DNA of 64,000 nt from Psammoneis japonica (GCA_008632985.1 QPGO01000019.1:558001-622000), one strand, 5' to 3'. Positions 1 to 41,539 are shown, counted from the stretch's first letter. Made by a program: numbers and translations. The notes: generated by a model not told the origin, from the letters alone.

Positions 1-35
1 CACAACACAGACCACAGACACACAACACAGCCACC

Positions 36-3780: not shown

Positions 3781-3849
3781 CATCTCCCACTCCCTCTTCC
3801 AAATGCCCTGTGTCCTGCATTCTGTGACCACTCTGCTCTCCTGCTGCTG

Positions 3850-5330: not shown

Positions 5331-5399
5331 TGTCACTCTTTTAAGTCCAAAATTCAGAGTTAAAGAGCCTGTGCAGAGTGGAAGGGAACAGCAGAAGGA

Positions 5400-9900: not shown

Positions 9901-10071
9901 GTGCTATTCGCGTTCTCTTGTCGCACCAAACCGCTGGCTCTTTTTGGCGCTTGTGGCGAGTGCGGCGAGAAGTGATTTCTCCTCCAACTTCCTCCAGCAC
10001 AGTTCATCTTGTGCGAGCACTTGTGTTCTGAATTCGGGTGTAGCTCTTTTGACAAAACGCCGCAGCAAAGA

Positions 10072-12588
10072 ATGGGAAACGCCCAGAGTGACGCTGGCAT
10101 TGATGACCCCGCCATGTGGGCGATTTCGTACCAACAGCTCATGCAATTTCACGCGGATGCTGCTCAAGAATTCAAAGACGAAGATTACGAAAGCAAAACC
10201 ATGCGAGACGTGGTGGACCGAATGATTGCGCCCTGGTGCAGACGGACCCATCGGTCCTATGCCTTGACTTTGAATCCTCAAGGACTCAAGATCGATGCGT
10301 TCATTACACACGCCTGGGACGAACCATTTGCCAGTTTTGTGCGTTCCATCATTCGAGTGTTTGAGACAACTCCGGTGAAACCCAACCTGTGGATCTGTTC
10401 ATTTGCCCTGATGCAAGGCAACGATCAAGTTACTGAGGAGGCGTTGAATGTTCCGTTGATTGAAGCTCCATTTGTAAAGGCACTGAGAAAGGCGTCTTCA
10501 TACATCGTCGTTCGTAATGCGACAACTGATGTGTACACTCGTATCTGGTGTGTGTGTGAATTGATGTTTGCCAAAAAGGAAGGGTTGGTTCCAAGAAAGA
10601 CCCATGTGACAGGTCCTTGTTGTGTTTCAAATAGCAATGCACCCATCACTTGCCTCGATGCCAAAGCAACAGACATTAGAGACAGGGACAAGATTGTCGA
10701 AGCGCTTTTGCAGTATCGATCTCGTGAGGAAGTCGACATTTTCATCAATTTATTCCGGCTTTATAATACACCGTCCGTGACTGAACAGGAAACGACGAGA
10801 GGAGAGCGAGATTCCTCAGTGCAACTGTTCCAAGACACTGCAGCACCTGCAACGGTTGGGAATGATGTTTCTGAAAATATGCAGGATGCTGTTAGCCGTT
10901 TGTCAGAACGTGAGGAGCTGGGGATAGTCGGCATTCAGCTGAGTGGAGCCCGCATGGATTCTTGCAGGGGCTGGGAAGACTACGTTTCGAGCACCGAGTC
11001 AAACTTTAACGATTTGCTCAAATCCCTGTTAAAGTACGGTGAACTGAAGGAAGGAAAGCCAAAAGTAAGAAAGAGAAAACACCGGCGACACAAGCGTGGG
11101 CGGGTGAAGCACATCAGGAGTCATGGAAAGGAGCGAGCAGCCGTGAAGCTTCATTGTGCTGTCAAAGTTTACGAAGACCTTGATGAATGTGATTATCGGC
11201 GTGTGAGAGAAATATGCCGCAATCTTGCTGCATTGTTGAAGACAGGTGGAGCGAGCCCATCGCAGTTGGAACGCTTGATGATTGGTGCTGCTTGGCGTGG
11301 ATCTCTTGTGCTGTTTCTTGAGGCTCCTACGCCGGCATTCGACATCCTCTTTAAGATGCTGAAGGACTGCACGCATCGTGTTCCGCTGGGGGTTCATGAT
11401 GCTTCAATCTGTGGATTAGAACCGGCCTTCCTGTTGCCTCCCTTAGAAGAATTCTTGCATCACCCATTTGACCAAGGCAGACGTACCTCAGATGCAATAG
11501 TGTGGGAAATTGAGAGTCTTCTGTTGGTGATGCCCAGGTCCTCTCAGGCACTCAACAGAATTGTACGACAAGGACAAAGGATGTGGCCCGAAATGGAAGA
11601 AGGGGATTTGCAAATTCTTCCACAAGTTCGAGTATTTAAAAACTCTGACATGTCCACAGCACGAAAACTCGAATCCAAAACAAGAGAACTTGAACCAAAC
11701 GTGTCACCCAACATCACGTCCAAGATACTCGAATCAAGTACGTCAGCGGTCATGGTTCCCGGACTGATGGAGGAATTGAGCTTTTTAAGCGCACCAACGA
11801 ACGTCACGTCCAAAATACGAAAACTCGAATCAAGCATGTCAGCCGCCGAGGTTGAACGAATAGTGGAGGAATTGAAGATTTTGGCCAGAGACAATGAGCA
11901 AAATGATCGCGTCGAGATTGCCACAGCGGGAGGGATTGAGTGCATCGTGGCTGCCATGAATCGACACGCAGACCATGCGGGTGTGCAAGAAGCCGGGTGT
12001 GGAGCCTTGGGGAATTTGACTGTAAATGATGACAACGACATCAGGATTGCTGCTGCCGGAGGGATCGAGTGCATTGTGTCAACCATGAATCGACACGCTG
12101 ATCACGCGGGTGTGCAAGAAGCCGGTTGTGGAGCCTTGTGGAATTTGGCTTTTAACAAAGACAACGAGGTCGAGATTGCTTCTGCCGGAGGAATTGAGTG
12201 CATTGTGTCCGCGATGAATCGACACACGGACCACGTGGGTGTGCAACAAGCAGGATGTCGAGCCTTGTGGAATTTGGCCTTCAATGGCGACAACAAGATC
12301 AAGATTGCTTCCGCGGGAGGGATTGAGAGCATCTTGTCCGCCATGAATCGACATGCAGATCACGCGCCGGTGCAAAGATTCGGGTGTGCATCCTTGTGGG
12401 ATTTGGCTGTAAATGATGACAACCGGGTCAAAATCGCTGCTGCGGGAGGGATTGAGAGCATCGTGTCTGCCATGAATCGACACCCGGATCGCGAGGGGGT
12501 ACAAATGTACGGTCGCGGCGCCTTGAGGATTTTGGCTCGCAACAAAGACATTAAGGCCATGATAAATGCAATGGGAGGAATTCCGTAG
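10072..12588 (+). CDS. HET/TIR-like N-terminal domain plus C-terminal armadillo repeats; predicted N-myristoylation
   Basis: ATG at 10072 gives MGNAQS. Motifs FITHAWDEPF, LWICSFALMQG and YTRIWCVCEL, followed by five 43-aa ARM repeats. Confidence 0.8.
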   Translation: MGNAQSDAGIDDPAMWAISYQQLMQFHADAAQEFKDEDYESKTMRDVVDRMIAPWCRRTHRSYALTLNPQGLKIDAFITHAWDEPFASFVRSIIRVFETTPVKPNLWICSFALMQGNDQVTEEALNVPLIEAPFVKALRKASSYIVVRNATTDVYTRIWCVCELMFAKKEGLVPRKTHVTGPCCVSNSNAPITCLDAKATDIRDRDKIVEALLQYRSREEVDIFINLFRLYNTPSVTEQETTRGERDSSVQLFQDTAAPATVGNDVSENMQDAVSRLSEREELGIVGIQLSGARMDSCRGWEDYVSSTESNFNDLLKSLLKYGELKEGKPKVRKRKHRRHKRGRVKHIRSHGKERAAVKLHCAVKVYEDLDECDYRRVREICRNLAALLKTGGASPSQLERLMIGAAWRGSLVLFLEAPTPAFDILFKMLKDCTHRVPLGVHDASICGLEPAFLLPPLEEFLHHPFDQGRRTSDAIVWEIESLLLVMPRSSQALNRIVRQGQRMWPEMEEGDLQILPQVRVFKNSDMSTARKLESKTRELEPNVSPNITSKILESSTSAVMVPGLMEELSFLSAPTNVTSKIRKLESSMSAAEVERIVEELKILARDNEQNDRVEIATAGGIECIVAAMNRHADHAGVQEAGCGALGNLTVNDDNDIRIAAAGGIECIVSTMNRHADHAGVQEAGCGALWNLAFNKDNEVEIASAGGIECIVSAMNRHTDHVGVQQAGCRALWNLAFNGDNKIKIASAGGIESILSAMNRHADHAPVQRFGCASLWDLAVNDDNRVKIAAAGGIESIVSAMNRHPDREGVQMYGRGALRILARNKDIKAMINAMGGIP
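11905..12549 (+). repeat. Five highly similar 129-bp ARM-coding repeats
   Basis: Unit IAxAGGIExIVSAMNRHxDHxGVQxxGCxALxNLAxNxD repeated five times. Confidence 0.9.
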
Positions 12589-13291
12589 TGTCTTGTAAGA
12601 ATTGGAAAGGATCCAACGTGGTGCATGCAAATGTGTAGAAAAGGCTCTCTGAGGACGTTTTCTATTTTGAAATAAAACATCACCAATTTTTCCGTACCAG
12701 TAATGTACAAATCATAGCAACATAAAATTGCAATGATTTCACTCTTACGTTACTCTTTATCCGTTAAGAGTGGTTTCAACAAGTTGGCCGAGTCGACATG
12801 GAGCGCACATCCCAATGCTTTCAATTGGATGGACCGCCAATTATTGACACTTGTTCTCGTCCTCGTTGTCTTGCAGCAATTTCATCAATTCATGTCGTCT
12901 TGCAATGTTCTCTCGAGAGATAAGACCAAACGAAAACACCATGCAAAGGGTGCAAGCGGATTGGATCAGCTGGCTGCAGCTCCATAGTGGTCTTGTCGGA
13001 ATTCTTGAGCAACTTTACACACGAGTCGGTCGCCTATTGTGGCATCACTTTGAGGGGTGGTTATCGGAGTTTGCGTTTTGGTTTCAACGACGGATTGGTG
13101 GTGGTGGTGGCGCAGCAGCAGCAGCAGTGGACAAGAGTCGGCGCAGTGATGGGTTGCATCTTGTTGGTGGTGGTGGTGCAGTGCTACTCCATGCAAAAAA
13201 AGGATGGTGTAAACCCGACACTTGTGCTTGCGTCAACATGTCAATGACGACGTGTTGTTGCGAGAAGGAGATTTGCGGCTGAAGACCCGCA

Positions 13292-13647
13292 TGTGGGATT
13301 CTACCTAGGATGCAGGTCCTGTCTGTAGAACATGCTGCTGACAATCAGCACAAGGCACCAAAAGCCAGTTAAATGGCAATGAGTTGTCTTACTAACTCGT
13401 GCTTGGTTGAAATTATGAGCTAAAACTAATCTAAAAGTGATCCTCTTGCATTTGATCCAAGAGATCTCGGATAATGCCACGTCAGAAAATAGACATTCTT
13501 CGAATGTCACTCACGTAGAATGTGTGCTAAGGGTCACGGTGGAGGTTCGACACTTGCTTGAAACTTTCTGATGTCTGACTCAGCCGTGTAGAAATTCTAA
13601 GAAGATTGGACTTCTTGGGATGTCCACAGTCTTTCTAAAATGTCACA
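13292..13647 (-). repeat. 3' LTR of Copia-1
   Basis: tgtgggattctacc...ctaaaatgtcaca, direct repeat of 18987-19344. Confidence 0.95.
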
Positions 13648-16600
13648 CTCCCTTTGAAAGTGTCGGGTGGAGCTGTGACTTGATCTAATTCACCACTTGA
13701 GGAGCTTCTTTCGAAGGCGAACAAACACATTTTGAGGCACTGGCTTGGTCTCCATGTCTGCAATTTGTTCAGTGGTGTCAATGGGCAGAATGGAAATGAT
13801 TCCCTTCCTGACATGTTCCTTGAAATGATGTGGCGCCAGATTGAAATGCTTGGTTCTTGGTCTCATCTTGGGCAGTTTTGCAATTTCCAATGCGCCTGAA
13901 TTGTCTTCGAATGCCTTGCAATGAGCTGATGGAGTCTTGGATGGCACCTTGTGTCCATGCTCTTGACATTCCTTGATCAAATTGATGACAGGAATGGCGC
14001 TTCGGAGACTCTCGGACAGAGCGACACACTCGGCTTCTGTCGTGCTCAGCGCGATTTGTGTCTGAAGCTTGGATGTCCAAACTGCAGGGCAGTCTGCGCA
14101 GGCAATGACGTACCCTGTTCTGGACTTTGAAGTGCCAACGTCACAAGGGGCAGTCATTTTGTTCCAATTGCCTGCAAAGTCTGCATCGGCATGAACTTCC
14201 AATGACTTGTCTTCCGTTGGGTCCAGAATGATGTCTTCGTGTCTGGTTTGCTCGCAAGTGCTTGCAGAGCCAAAGCATTGCCTCACCGTGTGATCATTTG
14301 GGGCCGCTCGAAAAGCATGTGATCTAATGTGTTGCACAAGCTGCGTCAGGTCTGGCACACTTCTCGAGGAAGTTGAGCTTGCCAACCACGCTTCGGCAGT
14401 CGAAAGAGCCATCAAATGGCTCTTCATTCTCGTGTTGGTGTAGCATCTTGGAGGATGCTGCTGGAGTTTGCTTGTCTGGTGCGCAATGAGGCAAGTTTGC
14501 CATTTCGAGCATCTGCTTGATCATCTGCAGTTGCGCAAGTTTCGTGCATCCATCAGGGAGAGTTTCGACATTGACGCCGAGACTGTCGTCAATGCTCCCT
14601 TGATCGTCGATGTCAAAATTCTCATTGTGCATGTCCGCGACAGCTTGGTCGATGGCAGCCTTGTCTGGTGAAGCAAAAACACCATCATCAACACAATGTG
14701 TGAAAATCACATTTCCTTGGTGGCAGAGGCACTCGTCGACTTGTGATTGTTTGAAACCAATTTTCTCCAGACCTTGTCTTAAGTGCTCACCCCAAATTCT
14801 TCCTGCTTGTTTCTGTCCATGTGGGTTCTTCAGCAGTTTCAAAACATGAGTTTTGCAGTCACCACATTTGGTTTCAATGCCTTTTGGGAGTTCCACATGC
14901 ATGTTGCATTTGATGTCAGTGTGAGGACAGGCAAGAATGAAGTCGACTTGGCGAGTGTGCCATCCATTCAGAACGGACAGCATGAGCAGGAACCGGACAG
15001 TGTTCCAGTTGACGATGGCGGCGCAAGTCTGAAAATAGTTGACGGTGCACTCTTGCTTGCCTCCATGCACGTTGAGCCTTGACTTGTGCTCATGTGCCTT
15101 TCTTGTTTTGACATCTCTCTTTCTTTTCACAGACCAGACCGCTGGGAGCATGTCAACACCCTCTGGGACCTCCTCAACAGGTGTGAGCACCCAGTGCTTG
15201 CGCTCAACATGGTCGTTGACCTCCTTGACACAAGCTTTGATGAATTCATCATGGTCCGGTTCTTTCATGGCTTGATCAAAATGCTTGGCATCTGGGTCTG
15301 TTCTGGCTAGAAACGCGAAAGGTGAGTCCATGTCGTCTTGTGGCTTGTGGTCATCCTCGTGCATTGCATCGCAGCACTCGCAATGTGTCGATTGATGTGA
15401 TGTGACACCAGCGGCCCGTTGTTGCTGGCTCTCAACCATTCGTTGCATTGGTTTGTGCACTCCACCAGCCCTGCTGACAACTGGTTGTTCTGATGCCGTC
15501 TCTTGATTGTGTTCAGGCGGCGCATCTCCTGTTGATTCAGGTGTCTGATCCTCAGTAACAGGAAAATGCTTGTCCTCGAGTTGTCACAGAACATCGGGTT
15601 CCGGTGCCACAGTGGTCTGCGCTGGCGCAGTGGAGCGAGGCTCCCTCACTTCCTTTTGGGTCTTGAAGACATTGAATCTTGATGTTCTTTGTTTCTTGAG
15701 TCCTGACATGGTTTGCCATTGCGAGAAAGCAGGTGCATTCCCTGCCGAAGGGCGCACCGTTTCGAAGAAGTTGTCGAATTGGACGTGAAACTGCGGTGAG
15801 GTAAGTCCCGTCTCGAGGTTGAGCACCAGGTTGACTGAACCAGCATGTCTTGGAGATGGTCCCAAGTTGATTCCTAACCTTGCTCTTGATTGCCACTCAG
15901 GTGCTCTCTGTCCACTCTGCAGTCGGTTGTCTAGCGCATGGACTGGGCATCCGAAAGTGTGGTGTTGCTCAAGATTCTGAGCTGCCTTGACGGAGGCGAA
16001 TCGCTCAATTGGGGAGCTGCCATCTTCATGGTCAGGCAAGTTGTTCTTGAGCTCATTGGAATTGCGCAGTGCACTTGGCCAGAGATTGATCTCAACAGCC
16101 ATTGGCCATCTTGCTTTTGCACGCAGCAGCTGCTTGCGAGTCTGTTCTTGCAGGTCGCAGATTCGCTTTTCGGCGACACCATTTTAGAAGTGGGCATTGA
16201 CGCCGCAGCATGACATGGTTTGACCTTGTTTCTCAACATCTTGTGTGAAGGCGTTGTCTGCAAATTGGCCGTTGCCGGCATGGTGGTGTTTGATTTGGAC
16301 ATGATGTCGTCTCGAAAAGGCTTCAAAAGCATGCTTGGCCTTCAGGGTTTCTTCGGAGACAAGTGATCTTTGCAGAAACACGTGTCCCAGTTTGGAACAG
16401 TGATCGACAAACACTGTTGCTGCTCTGTGTTGCTGTTTTGCAGGTCTCCCTTTGAGTTGAGGGACAAAACCTGGGGTCGAGCTTTCGAGTTGATCCACTG
16501 ACATGACCTCCCCTGGCTTTGCAGCGACATGCATGTTCGATTGGCGTTTGGACTTGGTGCACCAAGGGTGTTCAGTCATGGCGCCATAGAGGCAGCCGGC

Positions 16601-18986
16601 ACATTTGGGTTCCTTGACCTTCAGGAGGCGTCGTGGGAGGATGCCCAATGCAGCTAGGAGCTTGATCATCTTGAATGATTGGTGTCCAAGGCGACAGTGC
16701 CAATGCAACAATTCACCTTGGTCATTGGTGGCCGCCAGGGCATCATCATCAGGGATGACGTTGATGGGATCTGGCAGTTTGGTTTGGACTTCTGGGGTCA
16801 CTGGATCCTTGAGGTTCTCATCAGGTGAGTCGGATCTGTGTGCAGCATCTGTTGGTTTGAACAACAGTGGCACGTCCTCATCAACGTTGTTGCGTGTGCC
16901 TTGGGTCTCATCAGGACCTGTCTCGTCAGGACTTGTGAAGGCATCTTTGTCATTCGCAGCGTCCGTGGACTCAGGGTCGCTTTCGTTGTCTGCAGGTGTC
17001 ATGCGCGTTTGACAGGCTACGTGCTGGACAGTCTCGACATCGTTGTCAGCATCGACTGCGGCGGCAAACACCCGACAGTCGGCAGCACCGGGTGTGGAAC
17101 AGAAGCATGCAACGTTGGAGTTGTTGGTCCAAGGGACCAGCCTCATGTGCTTCCTTTGATCCCACATGAGTGGGAGACCGTCGTCTCGGTTCCAGGAAGT
17201 CGTTCTGTGTGGTTCAGGACAATGATCCTGAGCTTGCTGGCTCCATTGCTGAGGGCAGAGGAGGCAAATGGGTGAGTTGGGAACATGCAGTGCGTTGTGT
17301 GTGGTGATTGTGTGCACCTGTCCGTCGTCGTCCTCGATGCGCCACTTGAGTGTGCCTTCTCCTTCTGCATCTAACCATCCACCTGCTCCCTTGATCCGCT
17401 TGTTTGCAGGACGCAGGTCACCAACAAAGTGTGATCTGTCGTTCGACATTGTGCAGGTTGCGTGGTTGTCGACACCAATGATGAAGGAGTCGGAGTTGCA
17501 GGACACTGGTTCCGTTCTCGGCTCTTGTTTGAATGGCGTCGTGGTGGTCGAGGTGTTAGCGTAGACCGTCTTGTGGAAGGTGATCTCGTACTGAGCCTTC
17601 TTGTGTGCGATTCGAGTGGGATGGCCCTTCTTCTTGGGAGCAATGTATTGTGGTGAGTGTCGACTCTTGATTCATCGTGGTTTGCGTGTGCCAGTCATGC
17701 CATCAGCTGGGATTTGCGAAATGATCCACTCACCCAACGTCATCACTGACTTAGACACGCGTTTCCACTTCTTCTCTGGCAGGTTGAGCGTCGTGAATGC
17801 TGTGAGCACCAACAGTGGAGCCACAGCATCTACGAAGCTCGTGGTGACTGGGGCAATTGTGAACGCGACAAGAACCGCCTTCATGCAGAATGCCCATGTC
17901 CGGAATGCTTTCTGGACTAGTCATTCCTCGGACTTGAGATCCTCGATGATTGAGGCCAGAGCGTTGGTGCAGGATGCCTTCTTGTTGAAGTCCTTTGTTC
18001 CGTTTTCAGATTCTTGAGCTTTGCGAAGTCGACAACCCTTGTCTCCCGGGTCGTCAGGCAAGTGAGCCACCCAAGCAGAGTGGCACTTGCACCAATGGCA
18101 ATCACGTCCCTTCTGACTCTTGTGATGACACTTGTGACCATTGACAGTCTTTGCAGGGTCGCTGTCCTTTGGCAGAGTTTTCTTCCAGGCTTTGTCCTGT
18201 TTCTTGGCGTGCTTCGGGTTCTCACTCTTGTTCTTGGAGTTCTGCTTGCTGCCACCTCCCTTGGACTTGTTGGGACTGCTCTTGAGAGCCTTGGAGAGCT
18301 TGAGATTGTGATCCTTGATGGTTTCCACAGTTAGCATCTGAGAGATCGCCTCAGCCATTTGGACTTGGTTCTCCGCTTGCCTTGATTGAGCAGCCATGCA
18401 AGCAGTGGCATGATCGCCCATGTTCTGCAAGGTAAGTCTGCCATGCTCAGTGATCAAATCTCGATCGATTCCATTGCTGTCAGGAATCGCCATGATGTTG
18501 CCTGTTCCTGACTTCCATCCTGACTCAACTGCTCGTTCATTGAGGACTTGACAGAACTTGTTGAGACCTTCAGAGTCTCCATTGAACTCATGAGGCAGTG
18601 GTGCAGCAGCCTCATTCCAGAGCTTGAGTCCTTGCAAAGCACCGCAGTCGATCCAGTCATCTGGACAGTGCCGGCCAGAGGGGTCAAAGCGAAAACAGGT
18701 CTGACAGCAGGCACTGCAGGAGGTGCTGGAGGCACTGGTGGCGCACCTCCACCACCACCGCCTGGAGGCACACCTCCTCCACAACCGCCTCCGCCACCAC
18801 CCACAGGAGGAGCTGGTGCCGGCACAGGTGCGGCTGCAGGAGCAGCAGGAGCTGCAGCAGGAGCTGAAGCAGCAGGAGTTCCAGCCACAGCAGATGAAGT
18901 GCAGGTGGTCACCATTGTTGAATGGTCAGGTTTTGATCAACAGCTGGCTTGAAATCGAAGTTGTGAAGCAGGTCGCAGAGGAAGCG

Positions 18987-19344
18987 TGTGGGATTCTACC
19001 CAGGATGCAGGTCCCATCTGTAGAATGTGCTGCTGACAATCAGCGCAAGGTGCCAAAAGCCAGCAAAGCAGCAATGAGTTGTCTTGCTAACTCGTGCTCA
19101 GTTGAAATTATGAGCTAAAACCAATCTAAAAGTGATCCTCTTGTTTTGTGATCCAAGAGATCTCGGATGATGCCACATCAGAAAATGGACATTCTTTGAA
19201 TGTTGCTCACACAGAACATGTGCTGAGGGTCACGGTGGAGGTTTGACACTTGCTTTGAAACTTTCTGATGTCTGACTCAGCCGTGTAGAAATTCTAAGAA
19301 GATTGGACTTCTTGGGATGTCCACAGTCTTTCTAAAATGTCACA
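18987..19344 (-). repeat. 5' LTR of Copia-1
   Basis: Direct repeat of 13292-13647, followed by TSD CCGCA. Confidence 0.95.
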
Positions 19345-19566
19345 CCGCACAGCATTTGATGCAAATCCTTGCTTGATGTTGCTGCTGCTCCCAGAGCATC
19401 CACAACACTGCCACTTTTTCTTGACAACGTCAAGCTCCACATTCTTGTTTGGGTGCCAATGTCGTTGGCTTGTCCTTTGGAGGGAGTGCTCTAGAGTGCC
19501 GCTCAACAATTGTTTCGGCAGAGCACAGCCAGTGGCAGCAGTTTTTGTGCGCGTTGCTGCAACAGC

Positions 19567-22500
19567 TGTGAACAAATGACCCCGCAGTCGCATGCACTGA
19601 GCTCTGCTCTAGCAGAGGGAAAGACTGGAAGAAAGCATGTAACATTGTGCCACCATTTCTACTCTCTAGAGCAGAAGTGAGATCTCGTGAGGAACTGTGC
19701 TTGATGCGACACTCTTTCGCCAATGACAAAGCACACAAACCTAAATTGAATTGATCACCCTCAAGTCAATGAATTGAACATGAGTCGGCTTGACCCAATT
19801 TACTCTCAGGCCACATTCAGTCACTCTAACATGACAAGGAAACCCTGGCAACCTGCACTAAACCCACATGGGAAAGGGAGCCAGATGTGACAGACTGCCA
19901 GTCTTCACAGATGTCGCGGAAGATCATCCCCACAAGTCCATCTCGCTTCATGCCACCTCACATGATCTCAGTTGCAAGGTTCGCCAGATTGCATTCCAAA
20001 CAAATGTGTTCAGTGAGTGACTCACCCATTGCTGCCAACTCTCTCATGGCGTGACACCAAACAGACCTCGACTTCTTCTTCAAAGCAGACTCTGGCCTTT
20101 GCGTGTTCTTGTGGACAACTGACATGTTGTCCCCACAGATGCAGGATGGACCAGACAATGGCACACCCATCATCCACAGCTTGTGCCACAGGCCACGCAA
20201 TGACTCCATGCCTTGCTTCATGGCTGTGAACTTGGCTCTGAAAACCAAGGTTTCAATGGCACTTTGGCACTTAGAAAACCACACCACCAAGGCCATGTTC
20301 ATGCAGATGAAACAGCTGGCATGTCAGGCAGGATTGCTTCCTGCACATCCCCATGAAATGACTTCCAGCCACATTCCTTGAAATTGGACTTGCCAGCAAT
20401 TTCTGGGGGTGTGGGGCCAAACACCAACCTGGCATCATGTCTCGCCTTGAGGCATCCACAGACATGGAGAAAAGCCTCAAGGTGACCCTCCCTGGGCATG
20501 GCAAGAAACAAGGTGAGCTCAGAAACCTCCATCATCAGATTGACACATCCAAGCTCCACTGTCCATTGCAGCACAGCTGCCTGTGGCTGATGGAACTGGG
20601 CTTTGTCTGCTTCCAGCTCAGGCAATGCATCTAACTTGGGATGACAATCCCACAGAAATGGAGCTGATGCCTGATGTGGCAATGTCTGTCCAGGGCAGTG
20701 CTCATCCAGATGCGCCTCGACATTCTTGATGGCCTGTTGGACACACATGCTGGAGCTCATGCCCCATGCATGAGTGCCATGTGGCATTTGCACCTCTTGG
20801 ATCTTGGCACCCAGACACATCTCAGGGTCACCAATCAAACCAGGCTTCATCTTGAAGCAGTGGTCCAACTCCTTGAGTGTGCTCACGGCATCATGGTGTG
20901 CCATTGGTGCATTGTCAATGTACAGAAGTGCACATGCACAGTGCCAAAACCCATCCTTGGGCCAGACCATGTCCTTGAGCCACACATCGGGGTCAGCCAA
21001 GCAAGACTTCCACCCAAGGTGGTGTGTGCAAGAAGCCAAGTGGTTCATGGAGGACGTGCCTGCGCTCTTCAAACCACAAAGTGCACACCTGACTGCCGCA
21101 CACTTGCCTGCGCAATGACCAAACTCTGGGCCCAGAGTCGCAGTGATCTTCTCACTGTTGGGTGCAGTGACACAGGCATTTTCAATGTCTGCTGACTTGA
21201 CCTCTGAGTCATTTAGAGCAGCAAGGGTGAAGGTAATTTTTACACTCTCACATGATGTGATGCTTGCGCATGTCAAAGTTGCGGGTGCATTGGTGGTGCA
21301 ACCACCAGCAACATGGTGCACCTTGTGCTTGAAATCTTGCAGTTTCACATCAAAGACCAAGCAATGATGTGCTGGTGTCCTGCCAGGTCCTTGTCATCAT
21401 CAATGATCTCAAATGCTTTGCTGATGACACCTGTCTCCTTGTCTGTGGCATCCTGCCACAGGTGATTGCCATCTGCCTTGTCCATCTTGACAGCCTCATC
21501 ATGCATCTTGGAAATGCACATCCTGCACTTGTGCACACACTTGTGGCACCGCCTGTTCACTGCCTCATCTTTGATCAATCAGGCCCTTGCACACTTGGCA
21601 AGTTGGATTCCTTCAAGTCCACAAGACGTTCCCAGGAGGCAGTTTTGTCTTTCCAGTGGACACAAAGGTGCCATCTTTTGGTCATCTTGCACATGGTTTG
21701 GCATCCTCTGCTGTTCTGTGGGAAGGCATCATCCTTCTGGACTGCATGCCCATCAGTCCTGTGATCAACGACAGCATCCAGCAGCAAGTGCTGGTTGCCT
21801 TCAGTGTTGCATTGCATGAACATGTTCTCGGCCATTGTGTTGGCTGCAAACTCAGCCTCCTGCCCATCAGGAAATTCAACCTTGTGTGTGCGAGTGTCTA
21901 GAATGGGATTGGCATTGGCTGTGCCCATTGGTGTCCCATCTGGGCTGAGCAAGCTTGCGCTGTTTGACTGTCCCGGTTTGTTGGGTGTCCCCGTGAGGTG
22001 GCAGCACCTCTGAGTTTACATGGATGATGTCAAAGGTGGTGTCTGGAATGTCATTCTCATTGGGTGCACTGACAGGAGCATCCTGGTCTTCATCATCCTT
22101 GTGCAGATCAAAGGTGTGAGTTGTGGCATTGGGGTTGTCATCAATGTCTCCTGTCATCACACCTTGACCTGGCTTGGCCTTCATTGGCCCATCAAACTTC
22201 TCACGTGACGCTGAGTGCATTTGGTGGTGCTGTTCTTCTGGGTCCAAGGGTCAGCAGGACAAGCAATTGACAACTTGTCCATTGTCTTTCAGTGTCTTAG
22301 CTGTCATGGCCGGGCCAACGTCACGGCTTGGACCAAGGCACTGCCCCAGGACTTCCTTGTCCTCAGGAAATGGGACTGCCGTGCACCCAAACATGACCGA
22401 GTCATGCCAGCCTAACTTGCACACATGTGAAATGTTGGCTGTCTGTCTGGACACAACAGTTTCTGGCACCTCTCCATCTAACTTGAAAATGTCGTGGATG

Positions 22501-25500
22501 GCATTGGATTGGATGAGAGCTTCAAGTTCAAGGCAATTGTCCCAAAGACATTTTTGGGATTGAGTCTTCACCATTTTGCATCCGACACCATGCTTGAGTT
22601 CACAAACAGTGCCCTCAGCAGCATTGGACCACAGAGCACAGGGTCAAGTCTGCCTGACATGACAATCTGCCTCCCTGGCTTTCTTGCTAAACTGACCCAA
22701 GGTTTGCTCCTTTGCCCCACTGCAATCATTGTGTGGGGTGTGCCATCTTGTGCAAAGAGCAAGGACAGGGCTTTGTGCACACAACTGTTGAACATGCCAA
22801 AGACTTGTGCACAGGTGTTGCCCCTTCTCAATTTGGTTGAGGAAATTGGGGTTTTGGAGCACATCTTCTTTGCAATGCACCTGCATCGTAACTGTTGGTC
22901 ATTTGTCCAAAATCTTTGGGATGGCATCGGATGGAGGACCATTTGTGCACCATGCTGCATTGTGACTTTGACAGCATTCTCAGTGTCCTTGAGGCTGACA
23001 GACCAATTCTTGGCCAAACATTCTGCATCAACATGCAGTCCCCGCTTCGTCATCTTCAGCAAAGAGAGACTGATCAAGGCTGGCAACATGTGGTTGTCAC
23101 ATGCATGCAAGATGTCTTGAAGCAGCTGATTCCCCAGATGGTCTGAGGTCTCTTGAGCAAGGGTGTGCAAGAGCTTTGTGCTCATGATTTGAATCTGAGG
23201 ACATGCACTGCACTTGGTCTCATGCATGCATTCAAGAGAGTCTGCAATGGAATCCTCTCTGGTTTGACAATCCGCAGTTTGTGGGTCACATTCGGGGGAC
23301 TCATGCATGAGTTCTGCTGCTGTGCCATCTTGCATGGCTGCTTCATGCTCCAAAGCAGTTGGTTTGGATGTGGGGAAGCAGCTTGTGACACCATGTAATT
23401 CCAATGGAATCAGGAGCTTGTCCCCATTTGCATCTGTCAACGTCACTGCATGTGACTTGCTGTCAGGCTTTGTCAGTGGGAATTTTGGCTGGAGATTGTT
23501 TCCCACATTGTTCAGCCACAACTGCACAGGACACAAAAGGTTGTGTTCAAGGTGCAGGATGTGTGCTGCCTGGTGGACTGCCAGGATGTGTTGGTGGCCC
23601 GAAGCAGGGTCCGCATGTGCAAAGGCTCTGCTGATGGTGCACAGGCTCTTGCTGGTGCACTGTTTTGGGTTGTGACCTGCAACATCTGCTGGACAATCAT
23701 GGTCAAGTGGTGTTAAAGCATGCTTGCCCAGTGCGCTTGCATCTGCATGGCTGTCAATCTCAGTGCAAGCTTCCACGTGCATGGCATCCCTCATGGTTGT
23801 TTGGGTGACATGCAGAGTCTGAAGTGGACTGAGACACATGGTTGGAGAGGATCATTTCTGCTCCTTCCTGCTGGGTTTGAGGTTGCCGTTGTTGTCACAC
23901 TGGTTGTTGGCCATCGTGTCTTTCAAGAGCTGAAAATTGGAGCGGTTGCATTGCTGCTTGATTGCAGTCTGCTTTGCAGGCTCTTTGGACTTGCTTGCAG
24001 TGTTGTCCTGCTGGTCCTTGACATGAGTGGCAATGGCGGCTGCCGTGCTGGCAAGGGCTTTGATCTGCTTCACGTTTTTGGCAGCCGACATCGTGTCTTG
24101 GTGACCACAAGCGTCACGCAGGGTCACTTGTCCTCAACGTCTTTCTCATGAATGGTGTCATTGCATTGGCGCTTGGTGCTTTTAAGGGCAGCAATGCAAA
24201 GCTTCTTGTTTTCACTGTCTGGCTTGGACTGTTTGATGAAGTCTTTTTGCAAGACAACACATGCATCAAAGTCACTGCACAGTGTCATGCTGGCCATGAT
24301 TTGCACTTTGACAGAGTCAAGGGACAAATCCTTGACACTCTCCAGAAGGTGGTGCACCTTCAAGCATTTGTCAATTCCAGCACAGCCACGCTCTTTGAGG
24401 CCCTCAATGATGGAGTGCTGCTTGACATGAACATGCACCAGGTGCTCAAAGTTCCAGTTTTGGCATTTGCCATGGCAGGAAAGACCTGCCAAGTGCTTTT
24501 CAGCCACATTGACCATGTTGTCTACATTGTTCAGGCCCAAAAAGTGGTTGCACAGGTTCAGGTGGGCCGTCCTGCCATTGTCCTGTTTGTGCTGTGCCTT
24601 CTTGACACAAGCCCAACAAGAGTGTTCCCACATGATTCTGGCAACAATCTCCCACACCTTGACATTGTTGGCGGCAAATGTTTCAGTGGGTTGCAGATCA
24701 GCCCCAGTGGTGAAGTGTGGGGCATGGGCCATCATCTTGGCACAGGCATTGGTGCAGTTGTCAGTGTCATCATCTGCCTCCAGTGTCTCCGTCTGATTCT
24801 CTCAGACCACACAGGCATGGGGAATGTTGGTCTCCCTGTGGCAAGCACAAAGATGCTTGTGTGTTGATTCCATCATCTTTGGCCAGTCCTTTTCAATGAT
24901 GGTGGGTGGAACATCTGTGTTCTCATGAGCAGTCTCTGCTGCACGAAGATGGGCACCCTCTGACGTGGTTGAGGGTGACATTGACTGCATGCAACATGCA
25001 TGAGACATGCTCACAAATGACAATCAGCAAAAGCTGCAAGCTTGAGATTTGTCTCAGCCTGCAGCAGTGCAGCAGTTCCCAGGTTGGGTTGTGGATTTGC
25101 TCCACCACCCGCTGCACCTCCTGGACAATGCATGACCTTGCACAAGGTCTTGACCTCATGGTCGTCAAGATGATGCAGTTCCTTGATGGCGTCAATTCCC
25201 TGGTCAGCAGCAAGGGCGCTGCAGAGGCTTCATTCATGAAGCCCAGTTTGTGGCATGCAGCATGTGTGGCTGCAACGTTTGCTGCTGCTTGGTGGTTTGT
25301 TGATGATCAAAACTCCATTCACATGAGTTGTGTGGTTCTCACATGAAAAGTGAGGGAGTTGCGCGAAGCTCGCATCGCTTTTTCATCATTGCATGTGTTC
25401 CGTCAGTTTGTCTGAACAATTTGTCTAAAGATTGGATTCCAATGTTGTGTCCACATGTCACTGTGTATGAATTTTATGCAAACTTGGGTGCCAACTCTTA

Positions 25501-26113
25501 ATGGACATGCGTGTTCACACAAATGTGTGTGCTTCTGTTCCCAACGGTTGGCTTGACCCACAGTGAGTGTGTGGCACAACATGTGGATTGTGTCGCATGA
25601 ACACATTCACAATGGACATGCATGTTGCTCACTCAGTGATTTCAAATCACTCACGCATCTGCCTCTGAGACAACTTTGGCATGGAAATGGCATCCCAAAT
25701 CCATCAATTTGCACTTTGTGTTCACGTGTGTGCACCATGAAACACATCAGAGCAGATGACACTGCAGTGCCAACAAGTGTTTAAACTTGCACTGATTTTG
25801 GGAGCATGAAACTCATGGAGCACAGATGTTTCTTGCATTTGCAGATGTTCACTTGTCATCCCTGACCTGTGTGGAACATTCCATGTCATTGCAGTGCATT
25901 GCAAGCATGGTGCTCATCGTCACTGTCACTGCACATGGCAATGGCTCTGACAAAGTGAACAAACAACCCTGTGGTCACATGCACTGGGGAAAGACTAAAA
26001 GAAAGCATGCAACATTATGCTGCCCTTTCCAGAAGTGAGATCTAAACCTGAGGAACTGCTTGACGCTCTTTTGCCAATGACAAAGCACACAAACCTAACT
26101 TGAATTGACCACA
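19567..26113 (-). mobile_element. Second, more decayed Ty1/Copia element of a different family
   Basis: Gag (24124-24735), protease EIDSHAD, integrase remnants, RT (SADIENAC, LCGLKSAG, LYIDN), RNase H (CICGDNMSVV). Diverged direct repeats at ~19567-19757 and ~25955-26113 are probable LTRs, with PPT-like ttgaggg on the minus strand at ~19758. Confidence 0.85.
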
Positions 26114-27400
26114 TGGCAAATTCTTCAGCTGCAAATGTGGGGGAATGGACATTGGGGTGCACAATGTGCCAAGCAGTCAACATCACCAGCTTCGAAGTGC
26201 AACAAATCCTGACAACCATCCAAGCCAATGCACCGTTTGACATCATGGTTGTGGATGTGTGGTCACCTGGACAGTCGGCAGCAAGCAAGAATGCAGTCAA
26301 TGCGTGGGCTGCCTGGACTCAATGACAGGATTTGAAAGCATCACATTTCTTGCCTCTTGCACCTCAGAAGTTGCAGCAAGAGCTGTGTTCCATGCATTCT
26401 TCATCCCCCACCATCTGCCAAGACTCATGCCAGTGGATGCAGGTGGATGGTTTGCTGGGCTGGTGCTGCAACTGTGTGGCCTGTTGGGTGCACAAGCGTG
26501 CCCAGTGACAAGAGAAAACCACAAGGCTGTTTTGTGTGAGAGAGGTTTTTTTTGACATCTGAACAAGACAGAGCACATGAAAACTGCAGACTGCCAACCC
26601 TTGCAAGAATGGACACTCAGAGCTGCATTCACGTCCCATGTGCGGAACAGTGCACCAGCAGAGAAGGCTTGAATGTTGTGAGAAGCAGAGCAGCAATGGG
26701 ACATGACATTTTCCTTTTCCTGTTGACACTTGCCAAGAAGCAACAGTTCCATGAGAGAATGCCAATCAGGGAGAGCAAGTCTTGAAACATGAGAGTGCAA
26801 CTTTCCCTTGCCTGGCAAAGCAGTGACTTGCATTGAAGTTGCTCACAGAAGACCTCAGAAACCACCACCGAACCCCAGCCAACAAGAAAGCAATGTTCAG
26901 GAAACAAGTCAGAAAACATTGTGAGAGCACAACAGAGATGAACCAACATGACCAATGGGAACTGCAAGATGGACTTGCTGGTGCATCTAGTGCCACTGAT
27001 TCTAGAGCTGGCAACGTGGATGCAGGTCGTGTGCGATGTCGAGCACCCAGCTCCACCCCTGCGACTCACAGAAAACCCAGAAAATGCTTGAGAAAGCATG
27101 TGAAGAAGAAAAAAAACCATCTTGAGTGCCACAGAATGCACTCACCAGAATGGGCATGGGAGCAAGCACTGCCTGCATGTGCACCACACTGAACAAGGTG
27201 CTGCACCAATGACAAGTCATGACAACCAAGTTTGCCCTGCACCTCCTGTGCTGCAGATGGTTCATCAATGATGTGTCTGGAGTGTGAGCCAGAAACAGCA
27301 AAGAGAAACTCAGGCATCCTCCAGTGGGTCCCCTGCTCACTCTCCACCTCTGCCACGAGACTCAAGAGATGCCCTGATCAAAGCCCATCTTGACCAACCA
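26114..27400 (+). mobile_element. Degenerate integrase fragment, probably Ty3/Gypsy
   Basis: WTLGCTMCQ (CxxC), PFDIMVVDVWSPG, LDSMTGF and FFIPHHLPRLMPVDAG resemble an rve core. Confidence 0.65.
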
Positions 27401-29072
27401 GAAGGACAGCAGGTCTCACTGTGCATTGAGCTGCTGTTGTTGGCCAATGGGGCACAGTCTTTAACTGCCATGGCAGGTTGTTGATTTGCAGATTTGTGAC
27501 AACATGCAAAATCCATGTGAATCACAACAGCGCACACTCTTGCTTTTCGATGTTTGGGGAGAGGGTGTGCTGTCATGAAGTGTGTGGAAAATTGCACATG
27601 TGAAAAAAAGGCTTGACATGCCACAGACTAACTGGCTGTGCAAATCTGGGAAGCATGAAGAACTGATAAAAATGAGGTTGGGTTGTGTCAGTGCACCAGG
27701 TGATTTGCTGCACACGTGCAAGGGACACACGCAGGTGCTGAGTGGGGAGGACAAAGTTAAAACCAAGTTCAAATTAATGACTGTCAAAAGTGAACCAAAC
27801 CATGTGTTGCAATAAAAAAAAGATGGCATTGCCAATTGAATTAAACATTGCACTCATTTGATTGAAGTTTGTGTCAGAAAAACTGATGAGACATCAGATG
27901 AAATGTGCAAAACAAGTGCATTTTGTTTGGTGTTGTTGCTGGCATTTTTCAAATTCAACTTGTTAACAATTTTGACAGTGCACATTAAAAAATTTACAAA
28001 GGAAAGTGGAAACCACTGCATTGCACCCTCTGATCATGTTGTGGTGTTGTCTGAACCAGTGCAAGCTTGTCCAGTTGCCTTTGTTGCTTGCTGCAAGGCA
28101 GCAGCATTGGCGGCACAGTCTGCAGACTTGCCAGCACCATTTGTGTCGGGTTTTGCTTAAAACAGCTGCCTTCAATGGAACCATTGGCTCATTGAGGTTG
28201 GTGGTTGGAGCAGCAAGTGAGGCAGCATGGCAGCCGCCGGTGGTGCAGGAGCAGCCATTTGGCACAAAGAGTTGGCAGCATTGGAGCAGACACACAGCCT
28301 GGGAGTTGGGAGTGTTGGAGCAGCCAGGTGGGTGGGGGTTGGCAGTGTTGATGCAGCAAGCCAGATGGCACGGCAGTTGGTGGCACTGCAGTGGCCAGTT
28401 GGTGCAGGGAATGGGTGTTGGAGCATGGCCAGGCGGCATGGGAGTTGGCGGTGCTGGAGCAGCCACATGGTGCAGGAGTTGGTGGCATTGGAGTGTGGCT
28501 GGGTGGTGTGGGATGAGTCGTCGGTGCTGGAGCGGCTCTGGTCAGCACAAAGAGTTGGTGGCATCGGAGCAGCTGTGCAGCATGGGAGCATGTGGCATTG
28601 GAGCAGCTGGGCGGTGTGGGTCAGCTGCAATGGAGCATGACAATGGACGATTGCCTCGCTCAAACGTTGCCGTTTTGATTACGCTGCGATGCACAATGTC
28701 AAAATCGCGTGAGCACGTGGTTGGAGTTGGAGCCGAAAAGCCTCTGAGCCAACAACAACAAAGAGCCAACAAAAGATCAAGGTGTGATGCACAGCTCCAG
28801 CATGTTAATGCGAGAGGATGCCATCAAGTCAGTTATCCTAAGTTTACTCATGTGTTAATCTGTTGCCACTGCGACATTTCTTTGGGTTGGCTTTTCCCTT
28901 CGCTCGCTAATAAAATACTGCCTTTTCTGTGAAATGGCAAAAGCCATCGCTCCTTGATGCAACCAACATGAAATAAATACTCTAATAAAACATGCATTTG
29001 CCATTTGCGTCCATCACATGTAAATCATATGCACCCTCCTCTTTGCTTCCTTAAAGATTCATGCAGAACCAG

Positions 29073-36885: not shown

Positions 36886-37270
36886 TTCAAAATTTCAACA
36901 AAGGGATTCTTTTCAATGGAAATACAAAGCATCGCCGGATCATCCTTCTTTGATCATATCCTTCTTTAGACATATGGCGCTTGGAGTTGGGATTCTTTTC
37001 AATGGAAACAAAGCAACGCCGGATCATCCTTCTTTGATCATATCCTTCTTTAGACATATGGCGCTTGGAGTTGGGATTCTTTTCAATGGAAACAAAGCAA
37101 CGCCGGATCATCCTTCTTTGATCATATCCTTCTTTGGACATCTGGCGCTTGGAGTTGAGGGTATCGAATCACTGAGAAGGTTTACCCTGACATTTTTCAC
37201 TCGTTCAAAATTTCAACAAAGGGATTTCTTCTTCTCAATAAAAACACTGATGGATCATCCTTCTTTGTTC
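36886..37270. repeat. ~84-bp tandem repeat, three copies plus a degenerate one
   Basis: gggattcttttcaatggaaa at 36903, 36989 and 37073. Confidence 0.9.
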
Positions 37271-41490: not shown

Positions 41491-41539
41491 CTGGGCAACA
41501 TGCATGAGTCCTGCTGATGTCTTCATGGCACGAGCCCAC

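What the first reader, a model, noticed from the sequence alone, without database searches (positions are those of the whole stretch)
13292..19344. LTR pair shows the change is post-insertion, DNA-level, two-stranded and polarised
LTRs are identical at insertion. By-eye alignment gives about 18 clean difference sites. Seven are TA (left) versus TG/CA (right), e.g. cctagg/cccagg, cttact/cttgct, ggataat/ggatgat, aataga/aatgga, gctaag/gctgag. Five are CG versus TG/CA (four with CG on the left). Six are TG versus CA swaps, as expected if a TA or CG ancestor was hit on opposite strands. Only two short complex spots and an indel fall outside these classes. The LTR at the island edge keeps both TA and CG, so TA is most plausibly ancestral. 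This argues against ADAR-type RNA editing and means LTR-divergence dating would overestimate age.
Basis: partly seen in the sequence, partly recalled or inferred. Interest (0 to 1): 0.85.

Follow-up and report, generated by a model that had tools for sequence, protein, structure and literature searches.

The report
Diatom retrotransposon losing its TA dinucleotides
The two end repeats of a copia retrotransposon in a diatom genome differ almost only where TA or CG has become TG or CA, which points to a DNA-level process that erases TA from silenced repeats and has so far been reported in only one other alga.

Summary
A Ty1/copia element lies on the minus strand, with LTRs at 13292-13647 and 18987-19344, TG..CA ends and a 5-bp target duplication CCGCA. 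28 of 29 transitions lie in YpR dinucleotides (p~1e-8).

Independent evidence shows that TA is ancestral. At 12 RT columns where diatom copia homologs have Tyr, this copy has His 5, Cys 5, Ser 1 and Tyr 1. Against 80 related loci, the internal part has lost 32 TA and 12 CG per kb and gained 22 TG and 25 CA per kb. The change is therefore directional and affects both strands.

Surviving TAs show a context rule: RTAY is erased (ATAT most) and YTAR is spared. This rule partly explains the swaps.

The host is a diatom. About half of the window has TA O/E of 0.03-0.1. The closest precedent is the TpA hypermutation of integrated viruses in Bigelowiella natans (2026 preprint). My searches found no report of it in diatoms.

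Two caveats remain. Both LTRs keep far more TA than the adjacent internal region, with an abrupt step at the junction, so most of the TA loss cannot be dated from the LTRs. The seven TA sites could be polarised only indirectly.

The parts
13287..13291 (.). Left copy of the 5-bp target-site duplication (CCGCA)
   Evidence: Identical 5 bases flank both LTRs.
13292..13647 (-). 3' LTR of the element (the 'left' LTR), 356 nt. It has 17 TA (O/E 0.58) and 8 CG (O/E 0.50).
   Evidence: Direct repeat of 18987-19344 with TG..CA ends.
13648..13655 (-). Polypurine-tract-like run (AAAGGGAG in element sense) next to the 3' LTR
   Evidence: Read from the sequence. It agrees with the minus-strand orientation.
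13648..18986 (-). Internal region, 5339 nt. It has 25 TA (O/E 0.08) and 218 CG (O/E 0.61). The reading frame is interrupted by in-frame stops.
   Evidence: Stop codons over six frames: TGA 264, TAG 22, TAA 13.
14324..15583 (-). Reverse transcriptase (Pfam RVT_2, E 2.9e-29). The YxDD box reads CVDD.
   Evidence: Of 12 columns where homologs have Tyr, this copy reads His 5, Cys 5, Ser 1, Tyr 1.
16184..17671 (-). Protease/integrase part (Pfam gag_pre-integrs E 1.4e-8; Pol_BBD below its cut-off)
17921..18925 (-). Putative gag ORF with no family match
18987..19344 (-). 5' LTR of the element (the 'right' LTR), 358 nt. It has 9 TA (O/E 0.32) and 5 CG (O/E 0.29) and is the more mutated copy.
19345..19349 (.). 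Right copy of the target-site duplication (CCGCA)
19350..28750 (.). Older TA- and CG-depleted block abutting the right LTR. It contains a degraded second copia RT remnant at 20407-21345 (-).
   Evidence: Composition is. The RT remnant is (RVT_2, E 0.004, below cut-off; tblastn 2e-8).

Best explanation
A Ty1/copia retrotransposon inserted into a diatom chromosome. Afterwards its DNA was hit in place, on both strands, by two transition processes that both end in TG/CA.

- The ordinary process is CG>TG/CA, the deamination of methylated CpG.
- The unusual process is TA>TG/CA, an A:T>G:C change at TpA. It prefers RTAY contexts (ATAT most) and spares YTAR.

The LTR pair records the part of this that happened after the LTRs were duplicated. 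The right (5') LLTR lost 7-8 TA and 4 CG that the left one keeps. The most sensitive TA sites were probably lost in both LTRs, giving TG in one and CA in the other.

What is shown: the spectrum, the direction, the involvement of both strands, and the restriction to repeat blocks.

What is inferred: the chemistry. The leading candidate is deamination of adenine to hypoxanthine in DNA, possibly at a modified TpA. A second candidate is a modified thymine that pairs with G. Targeting to silenced repeats as a form of genome defence is also inferred.
For: Structure. The element has an intact 5-bp duplication, TG..CA LTRs, and RVT_2 and gag_pre-integrs domains on the minus strand.

Spectrum.
- 28 of 29 LTR transitions lie in YpR, and 16 of 22 difference groups fall in the three YpR classes.
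- By comparison, 50 of 211 groups do so in 26 terminal-repeat pairs of related metagenomic copia loci (Fisher p 7e-6).

Direction.
- At 12 RT columns where at least 60% of 120 homologs have Tyr, this copy has His 5, Cys 5, Ser 1, Tyr 1. All 6 conserved Cys/His columns are kept.
- At 15349 this copy has CAC (His), while 632 of 697.6 of other-copy depth reads TAC. At 15341-2 this copy has CCA, the other copies have CTG, and homologs have Leu/Ile.
- Among the rows shown, this copy has TG/CA where the others have TA at 4 sites, and the reverse at 1.

Mass balance against 80 related loci, per kb of sense strand: TA 37.0>4.7, CG 52.4>40.8, TG 61.4>83.7, CA 88.3>112.9.

Asymmetry between the LTRs. 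TA is kept only on the left at 7 sites (8 with 13369) and only on the right at 0. For CG the split is 4:1. Combined, 11:1 gives p=0.006.

Context. Surviving TA per bp in old depleted blocks relative to islands: ATAT 0, ATAC 0.006, ATAG 0.008, GTAC 0.033, ATAA 0.05, CTAC 0.094, GTAA 0.13, CTAG 0.135, CTAA 0.315, TTAA 0.78. LTR sites follow the same order: median 0.315 for sites kept in both, 0.13 for sites lost on the right, and 0.02 for swaps read as TA.

Window scale. Blocks at 2-9 kb, 14-28 kb, 42-52 kb and 61-62 kb have TA O/E 0.03-0.2 with TG/CA at 1.5-2.2. The gene islands have TA O/E 0.5-0.85.

Precedent. In B. natans mutation-accumulation lines, 230 of 231 new mutations in two integrated viral regions are TpA>TpG/CpA (preprint 10.64898/2026.01.13.699255; abstract, Results and Discussion read).
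Against: - Both LTRs keep more TA than the internal region. At the internal region's context-specific retention, 4.1 of the left LTR's 17 TA would survive. The right LTR keeps 9 (p=0.005) and the left keeps all 17. The step is abrupt: 17 TA in the 356-nt LTR, then 1 TA in the next 463 nt. A single uniform in-place dose does not fit this.
- The left LTR keeps every TA that the right one has (9 of 9), yet it must have changed at swap sites. At all 7 LTR positions flagged, the left LTR is the odd one out and the right LTR matches the family majority.
- The seven TA sites were not polarised directly. One search shows only 40 of 1495 variant rows.
- 0 of the 80 related metagenomic copia loci have TA O/E below 0.36, so the process is not seen in those relatives.
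- Run X1 may be the data the assembly was made from, so it gives no independent confirmation of the sequence.
Confidence: 0.6

Rival explanations
1. Gene conversion or recombination. Most of one LTR (probably the left, about 13292-13550) was overwritten from another, less decayed copy or solo LTR of this multi-copy family. On this view the differences reflect divergence between copies, not change in place since insertion.
For: - The family is multi-copy: LTR depth is about 900 against 76 in the unique flank.
- The left LTR is richer in TA than the sequence on either side of it, and the step falls exactly at the LTR/internal junction, where homology with a solo LTR would end.
- All differences lie in 13306-13558, and the last 89 nt are identical.
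- The two complex spots and one swap are private to the left LTR.
Against: - Copies of this family differ from one another at many non-YpR sites (14 of 32 events in the rows shown). The two LTRs show only 1 non-YpR transition and 2 transversions.
- The left LTR's private states are carried by about one copy's worth of depth, so no donor is visible.
- The identical tail holds only 3 TA, all in spared contexts, and 1 CG. Its identity therefore needs no conversion.
Confidence: 0.15
2. Editing of the cDNA during reverse transcription, before integration (APOBEC/ADAR-like, inside the particle). The long-exposed internal region is edited heavily. The LTRs become double-stranded quickly and are spared. 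Some LTR differences would then arise between the two LTR copying steps.
For: - It predicts LTRs less edited than the interior, with a step at the polypurine tract/3' LTR junction, as observed.
- There is a slight 3'>5' gradient of surviving TA in the interior: 3.7, 4.4 and 6 per kb (positions; my own arithmetic).
Against: - Single-strand exposure predicts one-sided changes. Observed changes are balanced: Tyr>His 5 and Tyr>Cys 5; TG +22 and CA +25 per kb; the right LTR changed 4 TG and 3-4 CA.
- The simplest form of the model predicts that every swap has the same orientation between the 5' and 3' LTR. Observed swaps are 3:3.
- The depleted blocks at 2-9, 42-52 and 61-62 kb have no recognisable retroelement protein. 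The 20-28 kb block has only a degraded RT remnant.
Confidence: 0.1
3. RIP-like C>T at CpA/TpG created the extra TA in the left LTR, so TG/CA would be ancestral there. The right LTR merely lost CpG.
For: The LTR alignment alone cannot give a direction. RIP in fungi produces exactly TA versus TG/CA differences (recalled knowledge; also mentioned in the Discussion of the B. natans preprint).
Against: - TA is depleted in the repeats, not enriched (O/E 0.03-0.1).
- Conserved Tyr codons went to Cys/His, not the reverse.
- The left LTR's TA O/E of 0.58 equals that of related elements (0.60) and of the gene islands.
- None of the seven sites is among those where the family majority disagrees with the left LTR.
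Confidence: 0.03
4. Technical artefact: base-calling or polishing errors at modified bases, or LTRs polished with reads from other copies.
For: The library type of X1 is not on record. Repeats are prone to mis-polishing (general knowledge).
Against: - Contigs built from run X1 reproduce the depleted sequence. 145 of 510 laid contigs are at least 99% alike, and one 637-nt contig is identical over 14747-15383.
- The pattern covers tens of kb, with a balanced TA+CG loss against TG+CA gain.
- The right LTR is not simply the family majority at the seven TA sites.
Confidence: 0.02

Closest known systems
TpA-specific hypermutation of integrated NCLDV and virophage DNA in the chlorarachniophyte Bigelowiella natans (Mettrop et al., bioRxiv 10.64898/2026.01.13.699255; abstract, Results and Discussion read)
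   Same: The signature is the same: A:T>G:C only at TpA, giving TpG or CpA depending on the strand. It acts on resident nuclear DNA, is confined to foreign or silent sequence, and is accompanied by CpA+TpG enrichment. Low-TpA coding sequences there are enriched in reverse transcriptase and DDE domains.
   Different: - A different lineage: a diatom (stramenopile) rather than a rhizarian.
- The target here is a retrotransposon and unannotated repeat blocks.
- Depletion is far deeper: TA O/E 0.03-0.1, against 0.45 for their NCLDV region.
- Here it comes together with CpG decay. The word CpG does not occur in their main text.
- A flanking rule (RTAY hit, YTAR spared) is seen here. Their main text gives no flanking context, and their supplements were not readable.
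- Here the evidence is historical. There it is real-time, from mutation-accumulation lines.
Repeat-induced point mutation (RIP) of ascomycete fungi
   Same: Both are repeat-directed, DNA-level, two-stranded transition hypermutation with a dinucleotide preference. Both destroy transposon reading frames and inflate LTR divergence.
   Different: RIP is C>T at CpA and enriches TpA. Here TpA is destroyed and CpA/TpG accumulate, which is the opposite direction. No link to duplication or meiosis could be tested here.
Decay of methylated CpG in transposons. LTR retrotransposons of Phaeodactylum tricornutum are cytosine-methylated, by preliminary bisulfite data in a CpG context (PMC2806351, passages read)
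   Same: The 5 CG versus TG/CA sites of the LTR pair, and CG O/E of 0.1-0.3 in the old blocks, fit this ordinary process.
   Different: It cannot explain the TA loss. TA loss is the larger effect (32 vs 12 per kb in the internal region), and it reaches completion while CG O/E is still 0.61.
ADAR or APOBEC hyperediting of retroelements
   Same: ADAR prefers U before the edited A (stated in the preprint's Discussion), which matches a TA>TG signature. Edited retroelement copies arrive already inactivated.
   Different: Editing of RNA or of single-stranded cDNA is one-sided and leaves both LTRs identical. Here both strands changed equally and the LTRs differ.

Membership tests
Ty1/copia LTR retrotransposon | Two direct LTRs with TG..CA ends, flanked by a short target-site duplication | tested here: met
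   LTRs of 356 and 358 nt, 91% identical, TG..CA ends, 5-bp CCGCA on both sides.
Ty1/copia LTR retrotransposon | Copia-type reverse transcriptase (RVT_2), with integrase encoded upstream of RT | tested here: met
   RVT_2 E 2.9e-29 at 14324-15583(-). gag_pre-integrs E 1.4e-8 at 16184-17671(-), upstream in element sense.
Ty1/copia LTR retrotransposon | Intact, potentially autonomous coding capacity | tested here: not met
   There are in-frame stops between ORF pieces, the YxDD box reads CVDD, and Tyr is 0.4% of residues. It is a dead copy of the family, which does not affect membership.
TpA-directed A:T>G:C hypermutation of foreign DNA (B. natans type) | Changes are TpA>TpG or TpA>CpA | tested here: met
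   7-8 LTR sites. 10 of 12 conserved Tyr codons read CAY or TGY. Per kb: TA -32, TG +22, CA +25.
TpA-directed A:T>G:C hypermutation of foreign DNA (B. natans type) | Both strands are hit | tested here: met
   4 TG and 3-4 CA in the right LTR; 5 Cys and 5 His at Tyr columns.
TpA-directed A:T>G:C hypermutation of foreign DNA (B. natans type) | Confined to foreign or silent regions, with host genes spared | tested here: met
   Repeat blocks have TA O/E 0.03-0.2. Gene islands have 0.5-0.85, with boundaries sharp to 100-200 bp. The island at 10-13 kb is intermediate (0.2-0.6).
TpA-directed A:T>G:C hypermutation of foreign DNA (B. natans type) | Acts on resident chromosomal DNA (new mutations arise in place) | tested here: inconclusive
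   The LTR-LTR differences argue for it. Conversion and pre-integration editing are not excluded, and most of the internal loss cannot be dated.
TpA-directed A:T>G:C hypermutation of foreign DNA (B. natans type) | Responsible enzyme (proposed ADAT2-like DNA adenine deaminase) | not testable with these tools
   No whole genome is held for this window.
Fungal RIP | C>T at CpA, leaving repeats enriched in TpA and depleted in CpA/TpG | tested here: not met
   The repeats show the opposite: TA O/E 0.03-0.1 and TG/CA 1.5-2.2.
Methyl-CpG decay | CG>TG/CA in repeats with low CG O/E | tested here: met
   5 LTR sites. CG O/E is 0.1-0.3 in old blocks and 0.61 in this element. Methylation itself is not testable here.
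ADAR-type RNA editing fixed by retrotransposition | A>G on the transcribed strand only, identical in both LTRs | tested here: not met
   Changes are balanced on both strands and differ between the LTRs.

The most novel reading that the evidence does not exclude
Diatoms carry a repeat-directed DNA mutator that converts TpA to TpG/CpA in place. It has a defined flanking preference (RTAY, with ATAT erased completely and TTAA nearly immune), and it works faster than methyl-CpG decay. Silenced transposons therefore lose almost all TA, and with it all TAA/TAG stops and Tyr codons.

Together with B. natans, this would make TpA hypermutation a widespread SAR-clade genome defence. It may be based on a symmetric modification of the palindromic TpA step that mirrors CpG methylation.
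Probability: 0.5. Interest if true: 0.85.

Novelty: new member of a known kind. Interest (0 to 1): 0.72.

Why it matters
If this is real, a second and far more extreme case of TpA-directed DNA hypermutation exists, in an ecologically dominant algal group. That would turn a single-species preprint observation into a likely general genome-defence mechanism.

Practical consequences:
- LTR-divergence dating in such genomes is inflated. Here it is 8.7% over all sites against about 0.5% at non-YpR sites.
- Dead transposons keep long open frames, because TAA and TAG disappear. This misleads gene callers.
- Homology searches for old repeats fail. Of 98 ORFs from the depleted blocks, 97 had no Pfam match.

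The flanking rule (RTAY hit, YTAR spared) is a concrete signature against which candidate enzymes or base modifications can be tested.

Tried and rejected
- Whole genome: none is held, so the requested survey of all LTR pairs could not be done.
- Other copies in the window: blastn of the element against the window found only the LTR pair itself.
- Public collections: an exact 24-mer from the identical LTR tail gave 0 matches in metagenome contigs, viral contigs and genome contigs.
- Earlier scan notes: three look-ups returned nothing.
- Read laying gave family variants, but only 40 of 1495 rows were shown. The seven TA sites could therefore be judged only by their absence from the top rows. 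Runs X2 and X3 added almost nothing (3 and 0 contigs).
- Pfam on 98 ORFs of the depleted blocks gave one sub-threshold RVT_2 hit. tblastn with 120 copia proteins found one further remnant. The nature of the other blocks stays unknown.
- The ARM-gene 129-bp tandem repeats (11912-12556) were tried as a possible case of repeat-targeted TA loss and rejected. Their differences are mostly transversions and mixed changes (82 tv, 28 other ts, 5 TA-class, 7 swaps). This looks like ordinary coding divergence.
- The inverted arms 5574-7088 and 1928-3459 (69% identical) are too diverged and indel-rich for a clean spectrum, although 29 swaps were seen.
- A 2-bp inversion as the origin of the swaps was rejected because the flanks are not generally palindromic.
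- Intermolecular strand transfer during reverse transcription was rejected as the cause of TA-rich LTRs with a TA-poor interior. U3 and the interior are copied from the same RNA unless a switch happens within about 40 nt of the junction.
- Literature: six full-text searches found no report of TpA depletion or TpA hypermutation in diatom repeats. A 2025 diatom TE preprint (10.1101/2025.10.24.684338) has none of the terms TpA, dinucleotide, hypermut, RIP or deaminat.
- Supplements of the B. natans preprint, which may hold flanking contexts, are closed.

Full report
**What is there.** The coordinates are exact. Two direct repeats, 13292-13647 (356 nt) and 18987-19344 (358 nt), begin with TG and end with CA, and each is flanked by the same five bases, CCGCA. 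Between them, on the minus strand, lie a copia-type reverse transcriptase (RVT_2, E 2.9e-29, 14324-15583) and, upstream in element sense, a gag-pre-integrase domain (16184-17671). A purine run, AAAGGGAG, abuts the left LTR in minus sense. This is a Ty1/copia retrotransposon whose 5' LTR is the right one. The intact duplication shows that both LTRs belong to one insertion.

**The host.** The host is a diatom. A heme-oxygenase ORF in the window finds Epithemia, Grammatophora, Fistulifera, Seminavis and Nitzschia proteins at 43-50% identity. No whole genome is held for the window.

**The observation.** The LTRs differ at 33 of 358 aligned columns in 22 groups: 29 transitions, 2 transversions and 2 indel columns.
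- Seven sites have TA on the left and TG or CA on the right.
- Five have CG against TG/CA (four with CG on the left).
- Six are tandem TG/CA swaps, three each way.
- What remains is two complex spots and one indel.

Only 46.6% of LTR bases lie in a pyrimidine-purine step, yet 28 of 29 transitions do (p about 8e-9). In 20000 random placements, no trial gave more than four tandem swaps. As an imperfect control, 26 terminal-repeat pairs in 80 related copia loci from metagenomes gave 50 of 211 difference groups in these classes, against 16 of 22 here (Fisher p 7e-6). Many of those control pairs are assembly overlaps.

**Direction.** The LTR alignment alone cannot say whether TA was lost on the right or gained on the left. 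Three independent lines say it was lost.
1. Conserved Tyr codons. In an alignment with 120 diatom copia RT homologs, 12 columns have Tyr in at least 60% of them. This copy reads His 5, Cys 5, Ser 1 and Tyr 1 there, with codons CAY and TGY. All six conserved Cys/His columns are unchanged, and the catalytic YxDD box reads CVDD. Tyr makes up 0.2% of the RT residues, against a homolog median of 3.9%.
2. Comparison with relatives. Related elements have TA O/E 0.60 (minimum 0.36) and CG 0.89. The internal region here has 0.08 and 0.61. Per kb of sense strand it has lost 32 TA and 12 CG and gained 22 TG and 25 CA, which is a balanced budget.
3. Other copies in the same organism. Contigs of a public run of the same organism (X1, 510 contigs laid at 80% likeness or better) show a multi-copy family. 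Among the 40 best-supported variant rows, this copy has TG/CA where the others have TA at four sites, and the reverse at one. At 15349 it has CAC (His) where 91% of other-copy depth has TAC and homologs have Tyr.

None of the seven left-LTR TA sites is among the rows where 80% or more of the family disagrees with the left LTR. That argues against a family consensus of TG/CA there. The test is indirect, because only 40 of 1495 rows were shown.

**DNA level and both strands.** Both LTRs are copied from one template, so RNA editing cannot make them differ. The right LTR changed TA>TG four times and TA>CA three times (four if 13369 is counted). Tyr went equally to Cys and His, and TG and CA rose equally. 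Editing of one single-stranded intermediate would be one-sided. The simplest cDNA-editing model also predicts that all swaps have one orientation between the 5' and 3' LTR, whereas they are 3:3.

**A context rule, and the swaps.** The TAs that survive in depleted DNA are not a random sample. Survival per bp in the old blocks, relative to the gene islands, rises steadily: ATAT 0, ATAC 0.006, ATAG 0.008, GTAC 0.033, ATAA 0.05, CTAC 0.094, GTAA 0.13, CTAG 0.135, CTAA 0.315, TTAA 0.78. The process therefore prefers RTAY and spares YTAR.

The LTR sites follow the same order. TAs kept in both LTRs sit in spared contexts (median 0.315), and those lost only on the right are intermediate (0.13). The six swap sites, read as former TA, sit in the most sensitive contexts (0.02; Spearman -0.45, p 0.035). 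At the swap 13331-2, 82% of family depth has T at the first position, and the second position is not flagged, which is consistent with a TA ancestor. An internal analogue is 15341-2: this copy has CCA, other copies have CTG, and homologs have Leu/Ile.

With equal mutability, the absence of any right-only TA is incompatible with twelve sites lost in both LTRs (Fisher p 0.003). Swaps that descend from CG ancestors cannot be told apart from these.

**What does not fit.** Both LTRs are less depleted than the interior, even after allowing for context. At the interior's retention, 4.1 of the left LTR's 17 TAs should survive. The right LTR keeps 9 (p 0.005) and the left keeps all 17. The change is a step, not a gradient: 17 TA in the left LTR, then one TA in the next 463 nt.

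The flank to the left of the element is itself TA-poor (O/E 0.26-0.40) with normal CG. 'Protection at the island edge' is therefore not a sufficient account. CG loss, by contrast, is similar in the LTRs and the interior.

Either the interior is targeted much more strongly than the LTRs, or part of its TA loss predates this insertion, or the left LTR was refreshed by conversion. I could not decide between these. The LTR pair therefore shows that some TA loss is post-insertion, but not that all of it is.

**Window scale.** About half of the window (2-9, 14-28, 42-52 and 61-62 kb) has TA O/E 0.03-0.2, CG 0.05-0.8 and TG/CA 1.3-2.2. The gene islands have TA 0.5-0.85 and CG 0.8-1.1. Boundaries are sharp to 100-200 bp. 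At several block edges TA is gone while CG is still near normal, so TA loss runs ahead of CG loss. Only a second, degraded copia RT could be recognised in those blocks.

**Comparison with what is known.** The closest precedent is a 2026 preprint on Bigelowiella natans. In mutation-accumulation lines, 230 of 231 new mutations in two integrated viral regions were TpA>TpG/CpA, at about 1000 times the background rate. The authors propose an ADAT2-like DNA adenine deaminase. Its main text does not mention diatoms, CpG or flanking context, and its supplements were not readable.

Fungal RIP has the opposite direction. Methyl-CpG decay explains the five CG sites. LTR retrotransposons of P. tricornutum are cytosine-methylated, by preliminary bisulfite data in a CpG context (PMC2806351, passages). 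Six full-text searches found no report of TpA depletion in diatom repeats.

**Verdict.** Its reading as a DNA-level, two-stranded, directional TA>TG/CA process is well supported, and it inflates LTR divergence (8.7% overall against 1 change in 190 non-YpR sites). The 'post-insertion' claim holds for the LTR differences, at roughly 0.6 against conversion (0.15) and pre-integration editing (0.1). The chemistry is inferred, not shown. I file it as a new member of the kind just described in B. natans. The new features here are depth, coupling with CpG decay, and a flanking rule.

Noticed in passing
window 1928-3910 and 5355-7088: Large inverted repeat, about 70% identical. The arms have extreme purine/pyrimidine skew (GC skew -0.42 and AT skew -0.45 on one arm, +0.43 and +0.37 on the other). 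Both arms are TA- and CG-depleted, and 29 TG/CA swaps separate them.
   Followed up: partly
window 28500-28800, 41500-41900, 62200-62400: At the edges of depleted blocks, TA is already absent while the CG count is near normal. TA loss seems to run ahead of, or reach further than, CpG decay.
   Followed up: partly
window 9976-12588 (+): A long ARM-repeat ORF (870 aa) lies between two depleted blocks. It has 129-bp tandem DNA repeats at 11912-12582, TA O/E of only 0.31 and normal CG of 0.93. This may be leakage of the TA process into a host gene, or it may simply be the gene's composition.
   Followed up: partly
window 12848-13282 (+): The ORF abutting the left LTR has Tyr 0.7%, Cys 6.2%, His 4.2%, TA O/E 0.26 and normal CG. 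It looks like partly TA-decayed sequence rather than a gene.
   Followed up: no
window 20407-21345 (-): A second, much more degraded copia RT remnant lies just right of the element (tblastn 2e-8; RVT_2 E 0.004, below its cut-off). It suggests nested or adjacent insertions of different ages.
   Followed up: partly
window 13648-18986, all six frames: Because TA is gone, TAA and TAG stops almost vanish (TGA 264, TAG 22, TAA 13). Long ORFs therefore appear on both strands of dead repeat DNA. This is a trap for gene prediction in this genome.
   Followed up: yes
window 37261-38131 and 55774-56595: Two further tandem-repeat arrays. One has a period of about 215 bp in an AT-richer island. The other lies inside the M6-peptidase ORF, which carries a PT-repeat match at its C-terminal end.
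   Followed up: no
loci L001-L080 (metagenome copia relatives): None of the 80 related copia loci has TA O/E below 0.36. A few combine lowish TA with low CG (L050 0.36/0.34, L061 0.37/0.51).
   Followed up: no
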